From Escherichia coli (GTDB lineage: Bacteria > Pseudomonadota > Gammaproteobacteria > Enterobacterales > Enterobacteriaceae): DNA of 11,988 nucleotides. The stretch is taken from the NCBI RefSeq assembly GCF_041248615.1, contig NZ_CP158424.1. One strand, written 5' to 3'. A program made the position numbers and the translations under genes. Below the pieces are notes generated by a model. The model saw only the letters and a program-made list of their open reading frames with translations, was not told where the DNA came from and ran no database searches. This document shows, piece by piece, positions 1-11,801 of the stretch (the first letter of the stretch is position 1; each line of letters opens with the position of its first letter).

Positions 1-422
1 TACGCACTCAATTCCGGAGGGGGAGTGTAGGGAAGTGCCTGATTTATTTTATGTACGCGCAAAAATGAGATAGCTTTTATTAGATATCATCAGCCCTGTC
101 TGCATCAGTCAGCTCCTTACAGCGTCAGGAGTACTGATGAAGGGGGGAACGTTCCTGCGTTTTTGCAAAGGCAATCCGGCTAGAGGCTTTACTACGCAGA
201 AACATTCCGGACAACTTTTTACCCCAGTGTAACCTGTAGATCAACCAGATTTTGTTGCAGTAAAAATACAGTGGTTTCGCATTTGTAATATTTGTCACAA
301 AAATAACATCAATATGTTGGTTTTCTGTTGATAAATGGTTTGGTCGCTGATTATGATTTCCTTGTACTCCACAGGAGTACAGTCATGTGCATACTAAAAT
401 CCGTGTTTTCGATAAAATTAAG

Positions 423-449
423 GCCGTGATACAGAATCACGGCTTTTTT
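423..449 (+). terminator. Putative rho-independent terminator
   Basis: Hairpin GCCGTGAT (423-430) / loop acaga / ATCACGGC (436-443) followed by T6 (444-449). Read directly from sequence. Confidence 0.5.
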
Positions 450-617
450 CTTGCCTGAAAGGATCATTTACGCTAGAAGAGTTATGAGCGCGTCTCTGGT
501 GTTTGTTGCAGGGATAATATCTAATATGGGGCACCGGAAACGCGCTCTCCCTTCGTATACAGAATGCCCATTAATTTCTTCTTCCTGATTTTCCAGACAT
601 ATATTCTTGTGTAAATT

Positions 618-702
618 AAAAAACAGAGCGTGTTTCTGGTGTGAATTTGTTGGCTACAATGTGCATTGTTGTTCTGTGTTCCAGAAACACGCTTCTTTTT
701 TG
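618..702. repeat. Long inverted repeat with about 41-bp spacer, A-run upstream and T-run downstream
   Basis: Left arm aaaaaaCAGAGCGTGTTTCTGG (618-639) pairs with right arm CCAGAAACACGCTTCttttttg (681-702); 13-bp perfect core AGCGTGTTTCTGG. Could be a large-loop terminator, sRNA structure or protein-binding site. Confidence 0.45.
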
Positions 703-826
703 AGATGCACATCAGTCTGATACAAAGAGGGATGGTTGTATCTGTGTCAGAGTTTTGTTATTTTTTTGTATGCTCAGTTATTGATGGTTAATAATATCAA
801 GAAAATCAGCAAGTTCCTTACGCTAC

Positions 827-851
827 CCCTCTTCAGTAGAGGGTTTTTTTT
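827..851 (+). terminator. Rho-independent terminator
   Basis: Stem CCCTCT (827-832) / loop tcagt / AGAGGG (838-843) followed by T8 (844-851). Confidence 0.6.
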
Positions 852-995
852 ATCTGGTACGCCGTAAAACCCGGTCCTTCAGGGCGTAGAGGATGTCAAA
901 AATTTCTTCGAAAGGTAATACCCGATATCCCGAAGGAATAACAACGAAGAGGATACAGATAAAGACATAATACGGATAAGTCATCAGGAGGAAGT

Positions 996-1133
996 ATGTC
1001 TTGGGTGAAACTGACGGAAGCAGAACGTAAGTGTAGTTGCGATGATTATGCTGCACAGGTTGCACAGTTAAAGTTGTCCGGCAGAGATAAATTGCCACGG
1101 GAAGTTAGAGAAAAGTGCGGGAAAATGTCTTAA
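996..1133 (+). CDS. Candidate small protein (45 aa), unknown function
   Basis: ATG 996 preceded by AGGAGG (986-991); translates MSWVKLTEAERKCSCDDYAAQVAQLKLSGRDKLPREVREKCGKMS, stop TAA 1131-1133. Below the ORF-track length cutoff. A 34-codon ORF (1136-1240) follows 2 nt later in another frame. No homolog recognised. Confidence 0.3.
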   Translation: MSWVKLTEAERKCSCDDYAAQVAQLKLSGRDKLPREVREKCGKMS

Positions 1134-1394
1134 GAATGATTCTGGAAGAACGAAAAGTAAGAAGCGCAAAGGCTATGAGGGCAAAAGAGTATCGTGCCGC
1201 AGCGAATACTTTTACCTGGCAGCCTGTACGGCGCAGGTGAATAGACATTCCCCTGACTCATCCTGCTCCCCTTGGCGGCGAAGGGGATTAATCCCTATCC
1301 TGTAACTTCTATTTTGTGGAATCGAAAACAGCCGAAAATTGTGAAAAAAAACCGTTTCAGTCGTCTCAGTAAGGAAATTCGCTTGTGATTCACC

Positions 1395-2745: not shown

Positions 2746-4602
2746 ATGCCGGGGTTTAATTACGGTGGGTATGGTGACGGTACTGGCTGGAGTTCTGAAA
2801 GTGGTGGTCCAGCTCCAGGCGGTGGTATGCATGGAAATAGTGGAGGCCAGCGCGGAGATAACGCAAACAGTAGCAATTCTGTGAGTCAGCAGATTTCTGC
2901 CATTCAGAATGATCAGAAACTTAAACAGAAAGTGGTGAATATGCTGATTGCTGCGAGAAAAATGAATCCTGAAGCAAAAATGATTCTGGGAAGTATTGCT
3001 CCTTCTGGTGTTATGCAGGTCACCATTGAGGGGGTAACCTCCACTCAGGCCAGGCAGCTTGGTTTGGGAGGGCTGGTCATGGGATATAACGCTTCTGGTG
3101 TTATTGGGGCTGTGGGCGAAATAGACACCGGTCACCGCCTTAATGCATCAGGAGCAAGTACTCCCGGAAGCGAAACTTCTGTGGAGAGTTTTGTGAACGG
3201 ACAGAAACCAGCCGGAGAATGGCATGCTGTGGCGAAGGACAGCTGGACAGGGGCTGGTCCAGTGAATGTAGGGCTGGTTAATAACGCCATCAAAAGTGTC
3301 CGGATTATCAAAAAAGGCTATGTGACGGGCGTTCTCACGCCAGAAGAGGTGATGAATAAAGCAGAGTACAAAGCAATGCGGCAGGCTTTCGATTCCCTTC
3401 CACTGGCAAAACAGGGAGAGGCTGTCAGACAGATTGTTGCTGCTTGGAGTCTGGCATATCAGGATTTTCCGGTAAATCTGAAAAAAGAGATGGGGCGTGT
3501 CACTGAACGGATTGTTGATGCTATTAACCTGGCGCTCATTCTTAATCAGACAGAGTCCCGTTTGTCGGAATCACAAAAGAATGTTGATGTAGCGAACCAG
3601 ATTATCAGTGATACAGTAAAAGCTATTAATGATGTAAATAAGAAAATAGCAGAAAAACGAAATCAGCAGGTATCACTGACTGATTTGATGAATAAAAAAC
3701 AAAAAGAGGTCGAAGATCTTAAAAAGATATTCAAAAATCACTCTTATCACCGTATTCGTGATGCCCAGAGGGAATATGATGATGCCCGAAATAAATATGC
3801 TTTACTGGCCAGTGATATTAATGCGCTGCAGGCACAGGTTTCCGGACTGACGGCAAGGAAACAGCAGGCAGAACAGAACAAGGCAGCAGCAGAAAAAGCA
3901 AAGGCAGATGCAGCGGCGAAAGCTGCAGCAGAAAAAGCGGCTGCTGAAGCGAAAGCAAAGGCTGAAGCTGAAAAAGCCAGAAAGGAAGCAGAGGAAAAAG
4001 CAAATGACGAGAAGGCTGTTCTGACAAAAGCCAGTGAAATTATCATCAGTGTTGGTGATAAGGCTGGGGAGTATCTGGGTGATAAATATAAAGTTCTTTC
4101 TCGTGAGATAGCAGATAATATCAAAAACTTTCAGGGCAAAACGATTCGTAGTTATGATGAGGCGATGGCTTCTGTCAATAAACTGATGGCTAATCCTGAT
4201 CTTAAAATTAATGCCGCCGACAGGGATGCAATTGTGAATGCTTGGAAAGCATTTGATGCAGAGGATATGGGGAATAAGTTTGCCGCGCTGGGTAAGACGT
4301 TTAAAGCCGCAGATTATATGATGAAGGCAAACAACGTCCGGGAGAAGAGTATCGAGGGGTATCAGACCGGAAACTGGGGGCCGCTGATGCTGGAGATTGA
4401 GTCCTGGGTATTGAGTGGTATTGCTTCTGCTGTGGCGCTATCATTTTTCTCAGTCGCTGTTGGTTCATTATTTATTACAGCGGGCGTGTCTGTAACGGCT
4501 GTGGGACTTATGGGCATTATTTTTGCTGGCTTTATCGGTGCGCTGATTGATGATGATTTTGTTGATAAGTTAAATAACGAAATTATTCGCCCTGCGTATT
4601 AA
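2746..4602 (+). CDS. Pore-forming colicin, colicin A/U/Y family (618 aa)
   Basis: Track ORF 2704-4602 begins at a TTG; best start is ATG 2746 (GAGG 2735-2738, 7-nt spacer). N-terminus MPGFNYGGYGDGTGWSSE plus Gly-rich segment matches the colicin A translocation-domain start as I recall it. Ala/Lys/Glu-rich helical linker. C-terminal about 200 aa (NFQGKTIRSYDEAMAS ... NWGPLMLEIESWVLSGIAS ... hydrophobic helical hairpin ... NNEIIRPAY) matches the colicin A-subgroup pore-forming domain. Length is close to colicin U/Y. Confidence 0.93.
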   Translation: MPGFNYGGYGDGTGWSSESGGPAPGGGMHGNSGGQRGDNANSSNSVSQQISAIQNDQKLKQKVVNMLIAARKMNPEAKMILGSIAPSGVMQVTIEGVTSTQARQLGLGGLVMGYNASGVIGAVGEIDTGHRLNASGASTPGSETSVESFVNGQKPAGEWHAVAKDSWTGAGPVNVGLVNNAIKSVRIIKKGYVTGVLTPEEVMNKAEYKAMRQAFDSLPLAKQGEAVRQIVAAWSLAYQDFPVNLKKEMGRVTERIVDAINLALILNQTESRLSESQKNVDVANQIISDTVKAINDVNKKIAEKRNQQVSLTDLMNKKQKEVEDLKKIFKNHSYHRIRDAQREYDDARNKYALLASDINALQAQVSGLTARKQQAEQNKAAAEKAKADAAAKAAAEKAAAEAKAKAEAEKARKEAEEKANDEKAVLTKASEIIISVGDKAGEYLGDKYKVLSREIADNIKNFQGKTIRSYDEAMASVNKLMANPDLKINAADRDAIVNAWKAFDAEDMGNKFAALGKTFKAADYMMKANNVREKSIEGYQTGNWGPLMLEIESWVLSGIASAVALSFFSVAVGSLFITAGVSVTAVGLMGIIFAGFIGALIDDDFVDKLNNEIIRPAY

Positions 4603-5469: not shown

Positions 5470-5579
5470 GCAAACAAAAAAACCACCGCTACCAACGGTG
5501 GTTTGTTTGCCGGATCAAGAGCTACCAACTCTTTTTCCGAAGGTAACTGGCTTGGAGGAGCACAGTCACCAAAACCTGT
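5470..5579 (-). ncRNA. RNAI: RNA I, antisense copy-number and incompatibility regulator
   Basis: Complement of the first about 110 nt of RNA II. Stem-loop 1 (AACCACCGCTACCAACGGTGGTT) is conserved with pMB1; distal stem-loop sequence (5553-5579) diverges. Ends are approximate. Confidence 0.8.
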
Positions 5580-6637: not shown

Positions 6638-6994
6638 ATGGGGGTAATGATACCGATGAAACGCGAGAGGATGCTCACGATACGGGTTACTGATGATGAA
6701 CATGCCCGGTTACTGGAACGCTGTGAGGGTAAACAACTGGCGGTATGGATGCGGCGGGTCTGCCTGGGTGAGCCGGTTGCCCGTTCCGGGAAGCTGCCGA
6801 CACTGGCACCGCCGTTACTGCGTCAGCTGGCCGCCATCGGGAATAACCTGAATCAGACAGCGAGGAAGGTGAACAGCGGGCAGTGGTCTTCCGGTGACCG
6901 GGTTCAGGTAGTGGCCGCACTGATGGCCATCGGGGAGGAGCTGCGCCGGCTGCGTCTGGCCGTCAGGGAACAGGGGGCGCGGGATGATAGTTAA
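6638..6994 (+). CDS. mbeC: Mobilisation protein MbeC/MobC (relaxosome accessory protein)
   Basis: MLTIRVTDDEHARLLERCEGKQLAVWMRR... matches the MobC N-terminal remnant retained in pBR322 and the ColE1 MbeC family. Divergent from rop. Start could be ATG 6638, 6656 or 6671; 6638 has the best SD spacing. Confidence 0.85.
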   Translation: MGVMIPMKRERMLTIRVTDDEHARLLERCEGKQLAVWMRRVCLGEPVARSGKLPTLAPPLLRQLAAIGNNLNQTARKVNSGQWSSGDRVQVVAALMAIGEELRRLRLAVREQGARDDS

Positions 6995-8549
6995 GTTTCA
7001 TGCCAGGGGAAAAGGTGGTGGCAGTGGTCCGGTTGATTACCTGCTGGGAAGGGAGCGTAACCGGGAAGGGGCAACGGTGCTTCAGGGTAATCCGGAAGAA
7101 GTCCGGGAACTCATCGATGCCACGCCATTTGCGAAGAAATACACGTCAGGTGTTCTGTCGTTCGCGGAGAAGGAGCTGCCGCCGGGAGGACGTGAAAAAG
7201 TGATGGCGAGCTTTGAGCGTGTACTGATGCCCGGTCTCGAAAAAAATCAGTACAGCATCCTGTGGGTGGAGCACCAGGACAAGGGACGGCTTGAGCTGAA
7301 TTTTGTCATTCCGAACATGGAGCTACAGAGCGGAAAACGCCTCCAGCCGTACTACGACCGGGCAGACAGGCCGAGAATTGATGCCTGGCAGACGCTGGTT
7401 AATCACCATTACGGGCTGCATGACCCCAACGCCCCGGAGAACCGCCGGACGCTGACTCTCCCTGATAACCTGCCGGAAACGAAACAGGCGCTTGCTGAGA
7501 GCGTCACACGCGGGATAGACGCTCTTTATCATGTCGGGGAGATAAAAGGCCGTCAGGATGTGATTCAGGCGCTCACAGAGGCGGGGCTTGAAGTGGTCAG
7601 AGTGACGCGAAGCAGCATCAGTATTGCAGACCCGAACGGCGGGAAGAATATCAGGCTGAAAGGAGCATTCTATGAGCAATCTTTTACAGACGGGCGCGGA
7701 GTTCGAGAAAAAGCTGAAAGAGAGAGCCGCATCTACAGAGAAAATGCTGAACGACGAGTTCAGGAAGCTCGAAGAATCTGTAAACAGGGAACTGACCTCA
7801 AACGAATCTTTAATCAGGAACGCTATCAACGCCCATACAGCAGCCCTGAAAGAACTTCTGGAGAGGTATCAGAAAACGACCGTCAGCACGATGGACACAC
7901 ACTGGCAAACCGTGCTGAAAATGAGCGTGAAACGCTGGCTGTGGCTGATTATCGTCTCAGTGCTGATGTTTGCCACGACCGGGAGTCTGCTGTGGTACCA
8001 GGGCATGAAGATAAACGCAAACATGAATATTCTCCGCGAGCAGAAAGAGAGTCTGGAGAAGCTGAACGCGAAGACATGGGGCGTGCGTTATCACGAGGAC
8101 AGCAACGGACGTTTTCTGGTGTTGCCGAAGGGGATGAAAGCCGAAACGCACTGGACGGAGGACAACGGCAAACTGAACGCAGTGAGACTGGTACAGGAGT
8201 GACAGAGCATGACGGAGCTGGAAAAACATTTGCTGAACGCCTTAGAGCAACTGCAACAGGACTATATGCAGCGGCTGAACGAATGGGAGAGCGCCTTCGT
8301 GGAATTGCAGAAGATGTTTTCGCTTACGCAACGGGACAACGCGATGCTGAACGAGCGGGTCATGCAGTTGAGTCAGCAGGTGCAGCACTTGAGCGAGCGG
8401 ACAGAACGCTTGAGCCAGTTATACAGCGAGAACAGGAGATAAGGGACGAACGGCTGATACAGGAACGCGAACATGAGTTATCCCTGGAGCGTGAGCGCCA
8501 TCTGGAAATACAGGAACGGACACTGGATGGCCCGTCGCTGGGATGGTAA
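6984..8549 (+). CDS. mbeA: Relaxase MbeA/MobA (ColE1-type, 521 aa)
   Basis: N-terminus MIVKFHARGKGGGSGPVDYLLG... is characteristic of ColE1-family relaxases; start overlaps the mbeC stop; C-terminal half is Arg/Glu-rich as in MbeA. Confidence 0.92.
   Translation: MIVKFHARGKGGGSGPVDYLLGRERNREGATVLQGNPEEVRELIDATPFAKKYTSGVLSFAEKELPPGGREKVMASFERVLMPGLEKNQYSILWVEHQDKGRLELNFVIPNMELQSGKRLQPYYDRADRPRIDAWQTLVNHHYGLHDPNAPENRRTLTLPDNLPETKQALAESVTRGIDALYHVGEIKGRQDVIQALTEAGLEVVRVTRSSISIADPNGGKNIRLKGAFYEQSFTDGRGVREKAERESRIYRENAERRVQEARRICKQGTDLKRIFNQERYQRPYSSPERTSGEVSENDRQHDGHTLANRAENERETLAVADYRLSADVCHDRESAVVPGHEDKRKHEYSPRAERESGEAEREDMGRALSRGQQRTFSGVAEGDESRNALDGGQRQTERSETGTGVTEHDGAGKTFAERLRATATGLYAAAERMGERLRGIAEDVFAYATGQRDAERAGHAVESAGAALERADRTLEPVIQREQEIRDERLIQEREHELSLERERHLEIQERTLDGPSLGW
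7672..8202 (+). CDS. mbeB: MbeB/MobB mobilisation protein, nested in an alternative frame of mbeA
   Basis: ATG 7672 with AGGAG upstream; 176 aa with a predicted TM segment (WLWLIIVSVLMFATTGSLLW). Nested arrangement matches ColE1 mbeB. Confidence 0.75.
   Translation: MSNLLQTGAEFEKKLKERAASTEKMLNDEFRKLEESVNRELTSNESLIRNAINAHTAALKELLERYQKTTVSTMDTHWQTVLKMSVKRWLWLIIVSVLMFATTGSLLWYQGMKINANMNILREQKESLEKLNAKTWGVRYHEDSNGRFLVLPKGMKAETHWTEDNGKLNAVRLVQE
8209..8442 (+). CDS. mbeD: MbeD/MobD (77 aa coiled-coil protein), nested within mbeA
   Basis: ATG 8209 with AGGAG 9 nt upstream; helical, Gln/Leu-rich sequence; position directly after mbeB as in ColE1. Confidence 0.7.
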   Translation: MTELEKHLLNALEQLQQDYMQRLNEWESAFVELQKMFSLTQRDNAMLNERVMQLSQQVQHLSERTERLSQLYSENRR

Positions 8550-9498: not shown

Positions 9499-10248
9499 TC
9501 ACTGATCTCCTTCGGTCAACGGAGATTGTATTTTCCGCATTGATTCTCCTTTAAGTTCGATCTTGATACTGCCATGAACCAGTCGATCTAGGATGGCATC
9601 CGCATGTGTGGAGTCTCCGATCATTTTGTACCAGTTTTCCACCGGCAACTGGCTCACTACGATGATTGAGCCTCGTTGGTACATCAGATCCACTATTTCC
9701 AGCAGGTCGCTACGCTGTTCTGATGAGAGAGGTTCCAGCCCCCAGTCATCCAGAAGCAGCAGATCGCTATTATTCAGCCTGGTCAAAAGTTTGCTGTATC
9801 TTCCATCAGCATGCCCCTGATAGCACTGTTCCATCAGCGCTTTAAGGCGATAATAGTAGACCTTGTATCCCTGTCGGCAGGCATTATGACCAAGTGCACA
9901 TGCCAGGAACGTTTTACCGCTGCCGGTGGCCCCGGTCAGTAAAATATTTTGTTTCAGGGTTAACCAGTTTCCCTGACTGAGTGAACGGATGAGGGCCCTG
10001 TCCAGCCCTCTATTGTTACGATAATCCAGCTTTGATAACTCAGCATTAAGTCTGAACCGTGCATGTTTGATCAGACGCTCTGCCTTCCTGTTTTCACGGC
10101 AGGTTAGTTCTTCTGCTGTCAGTAATGACAGGCGTTCTTCGAAGCCCAGCTCCTGGTATGTGCCCGGCTGAGCAAGTTGCTTTTTAAGCGCATCACGGAA
10201 GCCGGTGAGTTTAAGTGCGGTCAGTTGTTCGTAAAGATGATTCATCAT
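9499..10248 (-). CDS. istB: IstB-like ATPase helper of IS21-family transposition (249 aa)
   Basis: Walker A motif GATGSGKT and Walker B-like LLLLDDWG; size and position directly downstream of istA. Confidence 0.92.
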   Translation of the reverse strand: MMNHLYEQLTALKLTGFRDALKKQLAQPGTYQELGFEERLSLLTAEELTCRENRKAERLIKHARFRLNAELSKLDYRNNRGLDRALIRSLSQGNWLTLKQNILLTGATGSGKTFLACALGHNACRQGYKVYYYRLKALMEQCYQGHADGRYSKLLTRLNNSDLLLLDDWGLEPLSSEQRSDLLEIVDLMYQRGSIIVVSQLPVENWYKMIGDSTHADAILDRLVHGSIKIELKGESMRKIQSPLTEGDQ

Positions 10249-10259
10249 TGGATCCCGTA

Positions 10260-11801
10260 TCAGTGGTAATACTCACTGCCGCGTACGTTTTCGTGTTCCA
10301 TCGTGGATAACAGATCTGGTTTTGGATCCTGAACAGGTTGTTTATCCAGACCTTTTTCCAGGATCGATTTAATACCTGACAGACGCCATACCTTTGTTTT
10401 CAGAGCTCTTGCACATGCTGCATTAAGTCTGGCTTTACTGTATTTTTTATGAAGGTTCAGGAGTCCAAGGCAGAAGCGATAGCTTTGTTCCGGATGTGGA
10501 CGAGAGTTCAGTATATGAAGCACATAACTATGAGTTTCACTGCCTATGTGCCCCGCCCATTCCAGAAGACGCTCTGGCGTCCAGGTGGCATGCTGTCGAT
10601 GAGCTTCAGGCATGTGCTCGTTGCGGGTACTGTAGCCATAAGTACGCTTGCGCGGGTGCACAGCAACCTCCTGCCCCTGATTGAAGAGTCTTACCAGTTC
10701 TCCGGAGATCCATGCTTCCAGTTGCTGGCCTAACAGCGAACATGGAACCGAGTAGTAATGTTTGTCGATTTCCACGTGGTAATCGGCATGAACTCTGACT
10801 TTCTTCACCAGGGTGTAACTGTAACTGGCTTCAGGAAGAGGCTTCAGTGCGGGTTTATCAAGCTGGATGAAGAGTTCTGCACGTGAATAACCCAACTTCT
10901 GCATTATTTTGTTATTCAGTCTTTCCAGCAACTCCCGAATGCGCTGATTAAGCGATGCAAGGCTGTAGAAGATCTCATGCCTGATTCGGGCCATGATCCA
11001 GCGTTCAACAACCTGAACGCCAACTTCAGCTTTGGCTTTATCTTTCGGTTTACGTGGCCGCGCAGGCAAAACTGCGACATTATAATGCTCAAGCATCTGC
11101 TGGTAGGTAGGGTTAACGTCAGGATCATACTTACATGCCCTGGATGTGGCGCTTTTCAGATTGTCCGGAACAACAAGTTCAGGAACGCCACCCAACCACT
11201 GGAAGCAGCGAACATGACTCATCACCCAGTCTTCAAGCTGCTGAGACCAGGTGGCCTCTGCCCATGTGTAACTTGATGCCCCGAGAACAGCTACGATGAC
11301 CTGAGCAGTTCTTATTTCTCCGGTCTCAGGGTCGGTAACGCCAACGGTAGGTCCACAGTAATCAACGAAAAGTTTTTCGCCAGCTTTATGTACCTGACGC
11401 ATTGATGGTGAAGTGGTTTTGAGCCATTCACGGTACATCCGGCAGTAATGGTTATAGCTGTAAAAACCGCCTGGATTACGCTCACAGTATTCTTCCCAGA
11501 GTAGCTGCAGCGTCACGCATTTATTACGCAGTTCCCGGTGTACTGTAGCCCAGTCAGGCAGAGAGTGCTTCTTCATCTTAACCTGGGTCTGAAGGAACGC
11601 ATGTTTTAGTTTTGTATCATCCCATCCTGTAGGTAAGGGCCACTGCTTTATGCCAAGTTGAGCCGCCCGATTAGCATATCTGGATACAACGGAAGGGGAG
11701 ATTGCAAGACTACGACCAATTTGTCGATGGCTGAGTCCAACACCGTATTTAAGCCTAAGAATTTCTTTAAGTTTTCTCATAGAAATTGGAACTGTTGGCA
11801 T
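10260..11801 (-). CDS. istA: IstA transposase, IS21 family (513 aa)
   Basis: N-terminal HTH (LKEILRLKYGVGLSHRQIGRSLAISPSVVSRY) followed by a long catalytic region; AGGA 5 nt upstream of ATG 11801; 11-bp gap to istB. Confidence 0.92.
   Translation of the reverse strand: MPTVPISMRKLKEILRLKYGVGLSHRQIGRSLAISPSVVSRYANRAAQLGIKQWPLPTGWDDTKLKHAFLQTQVKMKKHSLPDWATVHRELRNKCVTLQLLWEEYCERNPGGFYSYNHYCRMYREWLKTTSPSMRQVHKAGEKLFVDYCGPTVGVTDPETGEIRTAQVIVAVLGASSYTWAEATWSQQLEDWVMSHVRCFQWLGGVPELVVPDNLKSATSRACKYDPDVNPTYQQMLEHYNVAVLPARPRKPKDKAKAEVGVQVVERWIMARIRHEIFYSLASLNQRIRELLERLNNKIMQKLGYSRAELFIQLDKPALKPLPEASYSYTLVKKVRVHADYHVEIDKHYYSVPCSLLGQQLEAWISGELVRLFNQGQEVAVHPRKRTYGYSTRNEHMPEAHRQHATWTPERLLEWAGHIGSETHSYVLHILNSRPHPEQSYRFCLGLLNLHKKYSKARLNAACARALKTKVWRLSGIKSILEKGLDKQPVQDPKPDLLSTMEHENVRGSEYYH

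What the first reader, a model, noticed from the sequence alone, without database searches (positions are those of the whole stretch)
996..1240. Two adjacent small ORFs (45 aa and 34 aa) behind a strong SD
AGGAGG precedes ATG 996 (45 aa, Cys-containing, charged). A second ORF (ATG 1136, MILEERKVRSAKAMRAKEYRAAANTFTWQPVRRR) starts 2 nt after its stop in a different frame. This could be a translationally coupled pair or one gene split by a frameshift. The overlapping minus-strand track ORF (850-1098) has no SD and implausible composition.
Basis: seen in the sequence. Interest (0 to 1): 0.4.

Follow-up and report, generated by a model that had tools for sequence, protein, structure and literature searches.

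The report
Frameshift-split small plasmid gene (pseudogene)
The two adjacent small ORFs are the two halves of one conserved 81-codon plasmid gene of unknown function, cut in two by a single-base deletion, so this is most likely an ordinary decaying pseudogene and not a coupled gene pair.

Summary
AGGAGG (986-991) precedes ATG 996. ORF1 (996-1133, 45 aa) is followed two bases later by ORF2 (1136-1240, 34 aa) in another frame.

The window is the whole colicin R ColE1-type plasmid p14408_3. Homologues on about 490 enterobacterial plasmids, including CloDF13, pColD157-type plasmids and pAlvB, are single uninterrupted ORFs of 78-87 aa, here mostly 81. Relative to them the window lacks one A at 1107/1108 (TTAAG to TTAG). 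This stops the first frame after 45 codons and creates a TAG just upstream of the ORF2 frame.

Intact homologues are under purifying selection (dN/dS 0.07-0.3). The deletion appears in five sequence-checked assemblies and, by ungapped BLAST matches, in about 20 more, so it is not a sequencing error. Most carriers have also lost the Shine-Dalgarno site and the first 27 codons to an IS3-family remnant plus deletion, and carry R79Q in the invariant C-terminal RRR. That is gene decay.

The family has no Pfam, NCBIfam, PHROG, PADLOC or PDB match. It is predicted to be a basic helical hairpin with an invariant W...RRR tail, and its function is unknown. Two options remain untested: leaky -1 slippage at A_AAG (1112-1115), or reinitiation at ATG 1136. 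Interest is low.

The parts
996..1240 (+). Whole disrupted gene: a frameshifted copy of a conserved 81-aa plasmid ORF. With one A restored it reads MSWVKLTEAERKCSCDDYAAQVAQLKLSGRDKLPREVKRKVRENVLRMILEERKVRSAKAMRAKEYRAAANTFTWQPVRRR.
   Evidence: DNA and protein alignments to intact homologues. Homology with E. coli relatives ends exactly at the stop codon at 1240.
986..991 (+). Shine-Dalgarno sequence AGGAGG, 4 nt before ATG 996.
   Evidence: Read from the sequence. An SD-like purine block sits at the same place in homologues: AGGAGG, GGGGG, AGGAGA, GGAGG.
996..1133 (+). ORF1, the N-terminal fragment. Codons 1-37 are ancestral; codons 38-45 (REKCGKMS) are out of frame and end at TAA 1131-1133.
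   Evidence: It is 75.6% identical over residues 1-41 to the intact E. coli homologues.
1106..1108 (+). Site of the 1-nt deletion. Ancestral GTTAAGAG became GTTAGAG, with one A lost at 1107/1108. The deletion itself creates TAG 1106-1108 in the downstream (ORF2) frame.
   Evidence: Alignments; sequence indexing. The same deletion is present in L002, L020 (downstream part), L021 and L022.
1109..1240 (+). C-terminal fragment in the -1 frame, corresponding to ancestral codons 39-81. It ends with the family's invariant TFTWQP-x-RRR tail and stop TGA 1238-1240.
1112..1115 (+). A_AAG tetranucleotide in the ORF1 frame (GAA AAG). It is the only -1 shift-prone motif between the frameshift and the ORF1 stop. 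A slip here would give an 80-aa near-ancestral product (...REVREKVRENVLRMIL...).
   Evidence: Sequence. A_AAG is described as -1 shift-prone in E. coli in PMC5009743. There is no stimulatory structure downstream (z = -0.04).
827..850 (+). Terminator-like hairpin plus T-run, ending an upstream unit. It marks the start of the gene's own 5' region.
   Evidence: Conserved in pLH10-b-1-A.
931..1076 (.). Segment holding the gene's 5' region, SD and codons 1-27. In the 8.9-kb relatives it is replaced by a 222-bp IS3-family left-end remnant on the minus strand.
   Evidence: alignment. The remnant translates to an HTH_Tnp_1 / IS3 transposase N-terminus.

Best explanation
Window 996-1240 is a frameshift-inactivated copy of a small, conserved but uncharacterised plasmid gene.

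The ancestral gene has an AGGAGG ribosome-binding site and encodes an ~81-aa, strongly basic protein (pI about 10.6-11.6). The predicted structure is a helical hairpin (helix 8-24, loop, long helix 35-72) followed by an invariant C-terminal tail [T/M][F/Y]xW-x(2-6)-RRR. The gene belongs to the accessory backbone of ColE1/ColRNAI-type mobilisable plasmids.

In the lineage of this colicin R plasmid, one A was lost at 1107/1108. Ribosomes starting at ATG 996 therefore read 37 correct codons and 8 wrong ones, then stop at 1131. The remaining 40-odd codons, including the conserved tail, are left in the -1 frame and appear as 'ORF2'.

Shown here: the homology, the position of the deletion, that the split is the derived state, that it is inherited across independent assemblies, and that relatives have decayed further.

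Inferred: that the allele is non-functional. Also inferred, from charge, fold and genomic neighbours only, is that the intact protein is a nucleic-acid-binding or transfer-associated accessory factor.
For: 1. The window is plasmid NZ_LT599828.1 (colicin R, rom, mob, cer, IS21 insertion). Nothing is annotated at 996-1240.

2. tblastn with ORF1 finds homologues that continue as one 81-aa CDS: E. coli IncK2/Z plasmid pLH10-b-1-A (WP_045148228.1), a Klebsiella 10-kb plasmid (WP_159210150.1), and the small plasmids NZ_CP049203 and NZ_CP145653.

3. The DNA alignment shows a single 1-nt gap in the window at GTTA-GAG. Both halves align in register on either side of it.

4. The family is a real coding gene. 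Pairwise dN/dS among intact copies is 0.07-0.3 in both halves. 492 PLSDB plasmids carry it, 480 with at least 80% of the query in one frame, including CloDF13, pColD157-type plasmids and Hafnia pAlvB. More distant members of 78-87 aa keep the same architecture and the W...RRR end.

5. The deletion is real and inherited. It is seen directly in the aligned sequences of AP026459, QOGB01000100 and two ENA metagenome contigs that have a different, pLH10-like upstream region, and in the 100%-identical NZ_CP100534. About 20 further RefSeq records match the region at 99.5% identity without a gap.

6. There are signs of relaxed constraint. The window copy is the only one of 14 aligned members to deviate at A17 (to D) and at E70 (to A), and it carries R13C where the other six members of the 7-sequence alignment have R. 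The ratio on the window branch is 0.40 against 0.13-0.26 on the other branches, from small counts. All other sequence-checked carriers of the deletion have R79Q in the invariant RRR, and the same single mismatch fits the BLAST-only records. In PLSDB, 15 of 17 carriers lost the SD and codons 1-27 to an IS3-family remnant plus deletion. One contig lost still more (L020).
Against: The window-branch dN/dS of 0.40 is not 1, and the counts are small (13 non-synonymous, 10 synonymous). Much of the divergence therefore predates the frameshift, or some constraint persists.

Both fragments are still open, and ORF1 keeps a perfect SD. ATG 1136 lies 2 nt after the ORF1 stop, so reinitiation is possible. 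An A_AAG -1 shift-prone site sits in the 22-nt window where a slip would restore the frame, so some full-length-like product may be made.

No expression data were available. The function of the intact family is unknown, so loss of function cannot be tested by phenotype here.
Confidence: 0.85

Rival explanations
1. The split allele is still expressed as a near-full-length protein. A fraction of ribosomes slip -1 at A_AAG (1112-1115), re-enter the ancestral frame and make an 80-aa product (...LPREVREKVRENVLRMIL...RRR). The frameshift would then be leaky, or tolerated or even used, rather than inactivating.
For: Any frame-restoring slip has to happen between the TAG at 1106-1108 and the ORF1 stop at 1131, and A_AAG lies within that stretch. 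The review PMC5009743 describes A_AAG as the minimal -1 shift-prone site in E. coli and cites a case where such a site compensated a nearby -1 frameshift mutation. The frameshifted allele persists in several genetic contexts with both parts open.
Against: There is only a tetranucleotide, not an X_XXY_YYZ heptamer. The downstream RNA has no structure (z = -0.04). No homologue uses a frameshift; all are single-frame. Most carriers of the allele have deleted the SD, start codon and first 27 codons, which would not be expected if the product mattered. R79Q hits the invariant tail. The efficiency expected without stimulators is low (from general knowledge, not measured here).
Confidence: 0.07
2. 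The locus works as a translationally coupled two-gene unit, or split protein. ORF1 (helix 1 plus loop) is translated from its SD. Terminating ribosomes reinitiate at ATG 1136 (or GTG 1115) to make the helix-2 and tail peptide, and the two pieces act separately or reassemble.
For: Stop TAA 1131-1133 and ATG 1136 are 2 nt apart. The split falls near the loop-helix 2 boundary of the predicted hairpin. ORF2 retains the conserved tail.
Against: The arrangement is derived from a 1-nt deletion in one near-identical clade. ORF2 from ATG 1136 lacks the invariant K38, R42 and L46. There is no SD before 1136. Most relatives have lost ORF1, and so the coupling, entirely. The conserved tail is mutated (R79Q) in the other sequence-checked carriers.
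Confidence: 0.06
3. The frameshift is a sequencing or assembly error, and the plasmid really carries an intact 81-aa gene.
For: Indels are a common assembly artefact, and the site is purine-rich.
Against: The missing base lies in a run of only two A's. The identical deletion is seen in the aligned sequences of five assemblies from different laboratories, hosts and countries, including two metagenome contigs, and about 20 further records match the region without a gap.
Confidence: 0.01

Closest known systems
Uncharacterised 81-aa 'hypothetical protein' family of ColE1/ColRNAI-type plasmids (WP_045148228.1 on E. coli IncK2/Z plasmids; WP_159210150.1 on Klebsiella 10-kb bacteriocin plasmids; WP_021515249.1 at CloDF13 3446-3691; WP_000820629.1 on pColD157-type plasmids; WP_004846640.1 on pAlvB)
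   Same: Homologous over the full length once one base is restored: 78% aa identity to the pLH10 copy and, for that pLH10 copy, 56% to the Klebsiella copy. Same SD-ATG start, same stop position, same TFTWQP-x-RRR end, same type of host plasmid.
   Different: The reading frame is broken by a 1-nt deletion. The window copy deviates at A17 and E70, where the other 13 aligned members agree, and at R13 (C in the window, R in the other six members of the alignment). RefSeq annotates nothing here.
Rop/Rom (Pfam PF01815), the 63-aa helical-hairpin RNA-binding protein of ColE1 plasmids
   Same: A small plasmid-backbone protein predicted to be a helical hairpin. In one contig the family gene directly follows rop and overlaps it by 4 nt (L019). 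In two small plasmids it lies next to rop.
   Different: No detectable sequence relationship (hhalign probability 1.2%). The family is strongly basic, has a much longer second helix and a conserved unstructured tail. The window has its own separate rop.
Frameshift sites of dnaX and IS3-family transposases (A_AAA_AAG, G_CGA_AAG): -1 ribosomal frameshifting on lysine AAG codons
   Same: An A_AAG motif lies in the zero frame where a -1 shift would join the two ORFs (PMC5009743).
   Different: No heptameric tandem-slip site, no downstream stem-loop, and no conservation of a two-frame layout in homologues. The layout arose from a recent deletion.

Membership tests
81-aa ColE1-type plasmid hypothetical protein family (WP_045148228 / WP_159210150 / CloDF13 WP_021515249) | Sequence homology over the whole ~81-residue length | tested here: met
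   With one A restored the window protein is 78% identical to the pLH10 copy and aligns end to end with 13 other members.
81-aa ColE1-type plasmid hypothetical protein family (WP_045148228 / WP_159210150 / CloDF13 WP_021515249) | Single uninterrupted ORF of 78-87 codons | tested here: not met
   A 1-nt deletion at 1107/1108 splits it into 45-aa and 34/41-aa ORFs. It is therefore a disrupted copy (pseudogene) of the family, not an intact member.
81-aa ColE1-type plasmid hypothetical protein family (WP_045148228 / WP_159210150 / CloDF13 WP_021515249) | Invariant and near-invariant residues: E10, P34, R42, L46, W75, C-terminal RRR; also A17, K38, I49, R53, E70, F73 | tested here: inconclusive
   E10, P34, W75 and RRR are kept (R42 and L46 only in the repaired frame). 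A17 is D and E70 is A in the window, the only exceptions among 14 sequences. Close relatives of the window allele have QRR instead of RRR.
81-aa ColE1-type plasmid hypothetical protein family (WP_045148228 / WP_159210150 / CloDF13 WP_021515249) | Location on ColE1/ColRNAI-type or mobilisable enterobacterial plasmids near mob, rop, the bacteriocin promoter or a Xer site | tested here: met
   The window is a ColE1-like plasmid, with RNAI at 5474-5577 and rop and mob annotated. The gene lies 273 bp upstream of the cer XerC/D core at 1513-1541.
Programmed -1 ribosomal frameshift genes (dnaX / IS3-type) | Slippery heptamer X_XXY_YYZ in the zero frame within the overlap | tested here: not met
   Only the tetranucleotide A_AAG (1112-1115) is present. 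The preceding codon GAA cannot re-pair in the -1 frame (sequence).
Programmed -1 ribosomal frameshift genes (dnaX / IS3-type) | Stimulatory RNA structure downstream of the shift site | tested here: not met
   Folding 1116-1200 gives -14.1 kcal/mol against a shuffle mean of -14.0; z = -0.04.
Programmed -1 ribosomal frameshift genes (dnaX / IS3-type) | Two-frame organisation conserved among homologues | tested here: not met
   All homologues outside the near-identical clade are single-frame ORFs.
   No Pfam, NCBIfam, PHROG or PADLOC hits. The products are hydrophilic and basic: pI 8.96 and 11.6, with 10 K+R each.
Rop family (PF01815) | Sequence or profile similarity to Rop | tested here: not met
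   hhalign probability 1.2%; no Pfam hit.

The most novel reading that the evidence does not exclude
The split allele is not dead. Ribosomal -1 slippage at A_AAG (1112-1115), or termination-reinitiation at ATG 1136, would still deliver the conserved basic helix and W...RRR tail. This would be a natural example of a frameshift mutation buffered by recoding, in a still-uncharacterised ColE1-plasmid accessory protein. The positions of intact family members, directly after the relaxase gene or rop, and their Arg-rich C-terminus would fit a nucleic-acid-binding factor or one transferred by conjugation.
Probability: 0.1. Interest if true: 0.4.

Novelty: new member of a known kind. Interest (0 to 1): 0.2.

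Why it matters
For this window it matters little. It explains an unannotated stretch of a colicin R plasmid as a decaying gene, and it corrects the reading of 'two small coupled ORFs'.

The by-product is of modest interest. A small, clearly selected protein family sits on about 490 ColE1-type plasmids, including the classical CloDF13 and the very common 10-12-kb Klebsiella bacteriocin plasmids. It has no Pfam or NCBIfam model, no structural relative and no known function. Its loss in the pColR lineage shows it is dispensable for plasmid maintenance in the sampled hosts.

Tried and rejected
- **Family and structure searches.** Pfam, NCBIfam, PHROGs and PADLOC scans of the repaired protein, of homologues and of the two fragments gave nothing significant. 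A profile search of PDB sequences gave only E about 0.5 to ISY1. Foldseek of the AF2 model against PDB gave nothing with E below 2. The afdb50 library was unavailable.
- **Rop.** An hhalign comparison was rejected at 1.2% probability.
- **Structured RNA instead of a coding region.** Rejected: Rfam gave no hit, and folding of 940-1260 gave z = -0.47.
- **Minus-strand ORF 850-1098.** Rejected: no family match, and it is not conserved in homologues.
- **ColE1 MbeE or another mob gene.** ColE1 itself has no homologue between mbeA and cer. The 80-aa ORF after mbeD in relatives is unrelated.
- **Phage origin.** No tblastn hit in 50,697 phage records.
- **Literature.** No paper holds the accession numbers or the tail motif. 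A CloDF13 search turned up nothing about this ORF.
- **Functional link to Xer sites.** A Xer-like core, up to 3 mismatches to the search pattern, follows the stop codon by 7-12 nt in three lineages. It is absent at that position in the E. coli subgroup and in the window. I treat it as module-boundary synteny, not as evidence of function.
- **Naming the IS remnant.** The search returned only the same plasmids in the top rows. I therefore call it IS3 family only; its resemblance to IS629/IS1203/IS3411 OrfA is from memory.

Full report
**Context.** The window is the complete 11,988-bp plasmid p14408_3 of E. coli NRZ14408 (NZ_LT599828.1), rotated by 569 bases. It is a ColE1-type replicon:
- RNAI at 5474-5577, plus rop
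- a MobC/MbeA/MbeB/MbeD mobilisation region
- the colicin R operon cra/cri/crl
- exc1 and exc2
- a cer-type XerC/XerD core at 1513-1541
- an IS21-family (ISEc12) insertion, with istA/istB at 9499-11801

RefSeq annotates nothing between the IS and exc2, which is where the finding lies.

**The observation.**
- AGGAGG at 986-991
- ATG 996
- a 45-codon ORF ending at TAA 1131-1133
- ATG 1136 two bases later, in the -1 frame, opening a 34-codon ORF that ends at 1240

The same frame is open from 1109 and has a GTG at 1115. The minus-strand ORF 850-1098 exists but matches no family and is not conserved.

**What it is.** tblastn with ORF1 found homologues on other plasmids, at 75.6% identity in E. coli IncK2/Z-type plasmids, about 60% in small E. 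coli plasmids and 39% in Klebsiella. In all of them the annotated or readable ORF is 246 nt, or 81 codons. It covers both of the window's ORFs:
- pLH10-b-1-A: MSWMKLTEAERKRINDAYAAQAAQLKLSGRDELPREVKRKVRVKVLRMIRAERKARTAKAQRTKAYRAAENTFTWQPARRR
- window ORF1: MSWVKLTEAERKCSCDDYAAQVAQLKLSGRDKLPREV...
- window ORF2 frame: ...VRENVLRMILEERKVRSAKAMRAKEYRAAANTFTWQPVRRR

In the nucleotide alignment the only length difference inside the gene is one missing base in the window. Homologues read GTTAAG(A/C)GAAAAGTG; the window reads GTTAGAGAAAAGTG. Indexing places the loss at A1107/G1108. It also creates TAG 1106-1108 in the downstream frame. Restoring one A gives an 81-aa protein that is 78% identical to the pLH10 copy.

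**The family is a real gene.** Pairwise Nei-Gojobori dN/dS among intact copies is 0.07-0.3 in both halves. A tblastn with the Klebsiella protein finds 492 PLSDB plasmids, and 480 of them cover at least 80% of the query in one frame. Hosts are 407 Klebsiella, 63 Escherichia, plus Enterobacter, Citrobacter, Serratia, Salmonella and Hafnia. The set includes CloDF13 (3446-3691), pColD157-type 6.7-kb plasmids and Hafnia pAlvB. An exhaustive profile search of 1.84 billion representatives returned only 27 clusters, so the family is narrow. Its full-length members (78-87 aa) share E10, P34, R42, L46, W75 and a terminal RRR. There are no hits in phages.

**The split is derived, real and followed by further decay.**
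- All distant members are single ORFs, so the one-ORF state is ancestral.
- The deletion is seen directly in the aligned sequences of AP026459, QOGB01000100 and two ENA metagenome contigs whose upstream region is pLH10-like, which makes them recombinants. It is also in the 100%-identical NZ_CP100534.
- About 20 further RefSeq plasmids match the region at 99.5% identity without a gap. A sequencing error is therefore excluded.
- In PLSDB, 15 of the 17 carriers have window 931-1076 (5' region, SD, codons 1-27) replaced by a 222-bp remnant of the left end of an IS3-family element on the opposite strand: MTKNTRFSPEVRQRAVRMV..., HTH_Tnp_1, E = 1.5e-7.
- On the right, the replaced segment ends where window homology resumes at 1077. 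I recognise the sequence there as an IS3-family terminal repeat, but only from memory.
- On the left, the junction lies in a short patch that is similar in both sequences (CCCG[A/G]TATCCCG). This fits insertion into the gene followed by a deletion.
- Contig QOGB01000100 has lost still more, up to about window 1119.
- Every sequence-checked carrier except the window and NZ_CP100534 has CGG changed to CAG (R79Q) in the otherwise invariant RRR.
- The window copy is the only one of 14 aligned members that deviates at A17 (D) and E70 (A), and it carries R13C where the other six members of the alignment have R.
- Its branch-specific dN/dS is 0.40, against 0.13-0.26 for the other three E. coli branches. 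The counts are small, so this is suggestive only.
- Strain LH10-b-1 carries all three states on three plasmids: intact, frameshifted, and frameshifted plus IS-truncated.

**What the intact protein might do (inference).**
- No Pfam, NCBIfam, PHROG or PADLOC model matches. There is no relative in PDB sequences.
- AlphaFold2 on a shallow alignment gives a confident helical hairpin: mean pLDDT 82, helices 8-24 and 35-72, and a low-confidence tail. Foldseek finds no significant fold match in the PDB.
- The protein is very basic: pI 10.6-11.6, with 19-24 K+R in 81 residues.
- Its neighbours vary but are always backbone functions of small mobilisable plasmids:
  - 17 nt after the relaxase gene in four metagenomic plasmids
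  - after the mob operon in pAlvB
  - overlapping the stop of rop by 4 nt in HG780066
  - divergent from the bacteriocin SOS promoter in CloDF13 and Klebsiella plasmids and in a pore-former colicin contig
- In three lineages a Xer-like core (XerD-arm side first, up to 3 mismatches to the search pattern) begins 7-12 nt after the stop codon.

My best guess is a nucleic-acid-binding accessory factor of the plasmid backbone. Its Arg-rich C-terminus could alternatively be a conjugative-transfer signal. Neither idea was testable here. The gene's loss in the pColR clade shows it is dispensable for maintenance.

**Residual alternatives.** A -1 slip anywhere between 1109 and 1130 would restore the frame. 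The only shift-prone motif there is A_AAG (1112-1115), which the Atkins et al. review describes as the minimal -1 site in E. coli and as having compensated a nearby frameshift mutation in one case (PMC5009743). Against a programmed event:
- there is no heptamer
- there is no downstream structure (z = -0.04)
- no homologue has a two-frame layout

Reinitiation at ATG 1136 is mechanically possible. It would give a peptide lacking the invariant K38, R42 and L46. I put the combined probability that the split allele retains biological function at about 0.1-0.15.

**Verdict.** This is a frameshifted, decaying copy of a database-recorded but uncharacterised small plasmid protein. It is ordinary as a finding. 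The orphan family behind it holds some minor interest.

Noticed in passing
window 362-452 (+), with promoter-like site 328-357: Candidate small RNA or short transcription unit. The promoter-like site is TTGATA-18-TATGAT, 10 of 12 matches. It is followed by a 5' hairpin (363-381) and a strong terminator hairpin plus T-run (420-452). The fold has z = -4.4, and 0 of 200 shuffles fold as well. The homologous segment of pLH10-b-1-A keeps both hairpins, with a compensatory C-G to U-A change in the terminator stem, but its -35 differs. Rfam gives only a sub-threshold suhB/mmgR hit (E = 0.39).
   Followed up: partly
window 848-900: A ~50-bp element (TTTATCTGGTACGCCGTAAAACCCGGTCCTTCAGGGCGTAGAGGATGTCAAA) with an internal inverted repeat ACGCC..GGCGT. 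It is absent from the otherwise homologous upstream region in pLH10-b-1-A. It is present, in intergenic positions in the records inspected, in more than 200 plasmids: Salmonella pESI-type megaplasmids, a plasmid with phage-type genes (CP057763), and pCh104, where copies lie in both orientations about 250 bp apart. It may be a miniature mobile element or a recombination site. I could not identify it.
   Followed up: partly
window 486-547 and 619-701: Two long hairpins with near-identical stem sequences (GAGCG[C/T]GT[C/T]TCTGGTG...), 140 bp apart. Both are conserved in the IncK2/Z-type plasmid segment. They lie in a ~1.2-kb module (window 7-1240) that is 83% identical between pColR-type and large E. 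coli plasmids and appears non-coding up to 995. A 5-nt indel breaks the only annotated ORF there.
   Followed up: partly
window 1-25 and 9499-11801: The IS21-family ISEc12 insertion ends at window 6/7. It splits a terminator-like hairpin (CCCCCTCAATTCCGGAGGGGG) that is intact in the 8.9-kb relatives and in pLH10-b-1-A.
   Followed up: partly
window 6984-8549: RefSeq annotates mbeA as two pseudogene fragments, 'partial in the middle of a contig'. The window nevertheless has one continuous 521-codon ORF across the whole span. The middle part probably differs from the reference MbeA (a recombinant segment) rather than being broken.
   Followed up: no
L002 2868-3092 (AP026459) and L020 (QOGB01000100), corresponding to window 931-1119: The 8.9-kb relatives carry a 222-bp IS3-family left-end remnant (HTH_Tnp_1 OrfA N-terminus) replacing the 5' part of the gene. 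The left junction lies in a short patch of imperfect sequence similarity. One contig has a further deletion that fuses a reading frame across the remnant to the ORF2 frame; it is called as the 89-aa protein P0013.
   Followed up: yes
L006 3253-3279; L007 1722-1748; L027 1390-1417: In Klebsiella 10-kb plasmids, in a pore-former colicin contig and in pColD157-type plasmids, a XerC/XerD-like core (XerD arm first, up to 3 mismatches to the search pattern) starts 7-12 nt after the stop codon of the intact 81-aa gene. In the E. coli subgroup, homology between plasmids ends exactly at the stop codon. This suggests the gene sits at a recombination module boundary.
   Followed up: partly
protein clusters P0011, P0016-P0021, P0024-P0027, P0030-P0032: Many database representatives of the family are themselves frameshifted or truncated. 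Their breaks cluster around codons 37-58, in the purine-rich stretch encoding the basic helix. I did not determine whether these are sequencing errors in short-read or metagenome assemblies or a real mutational hotspot.
   Followed up: no
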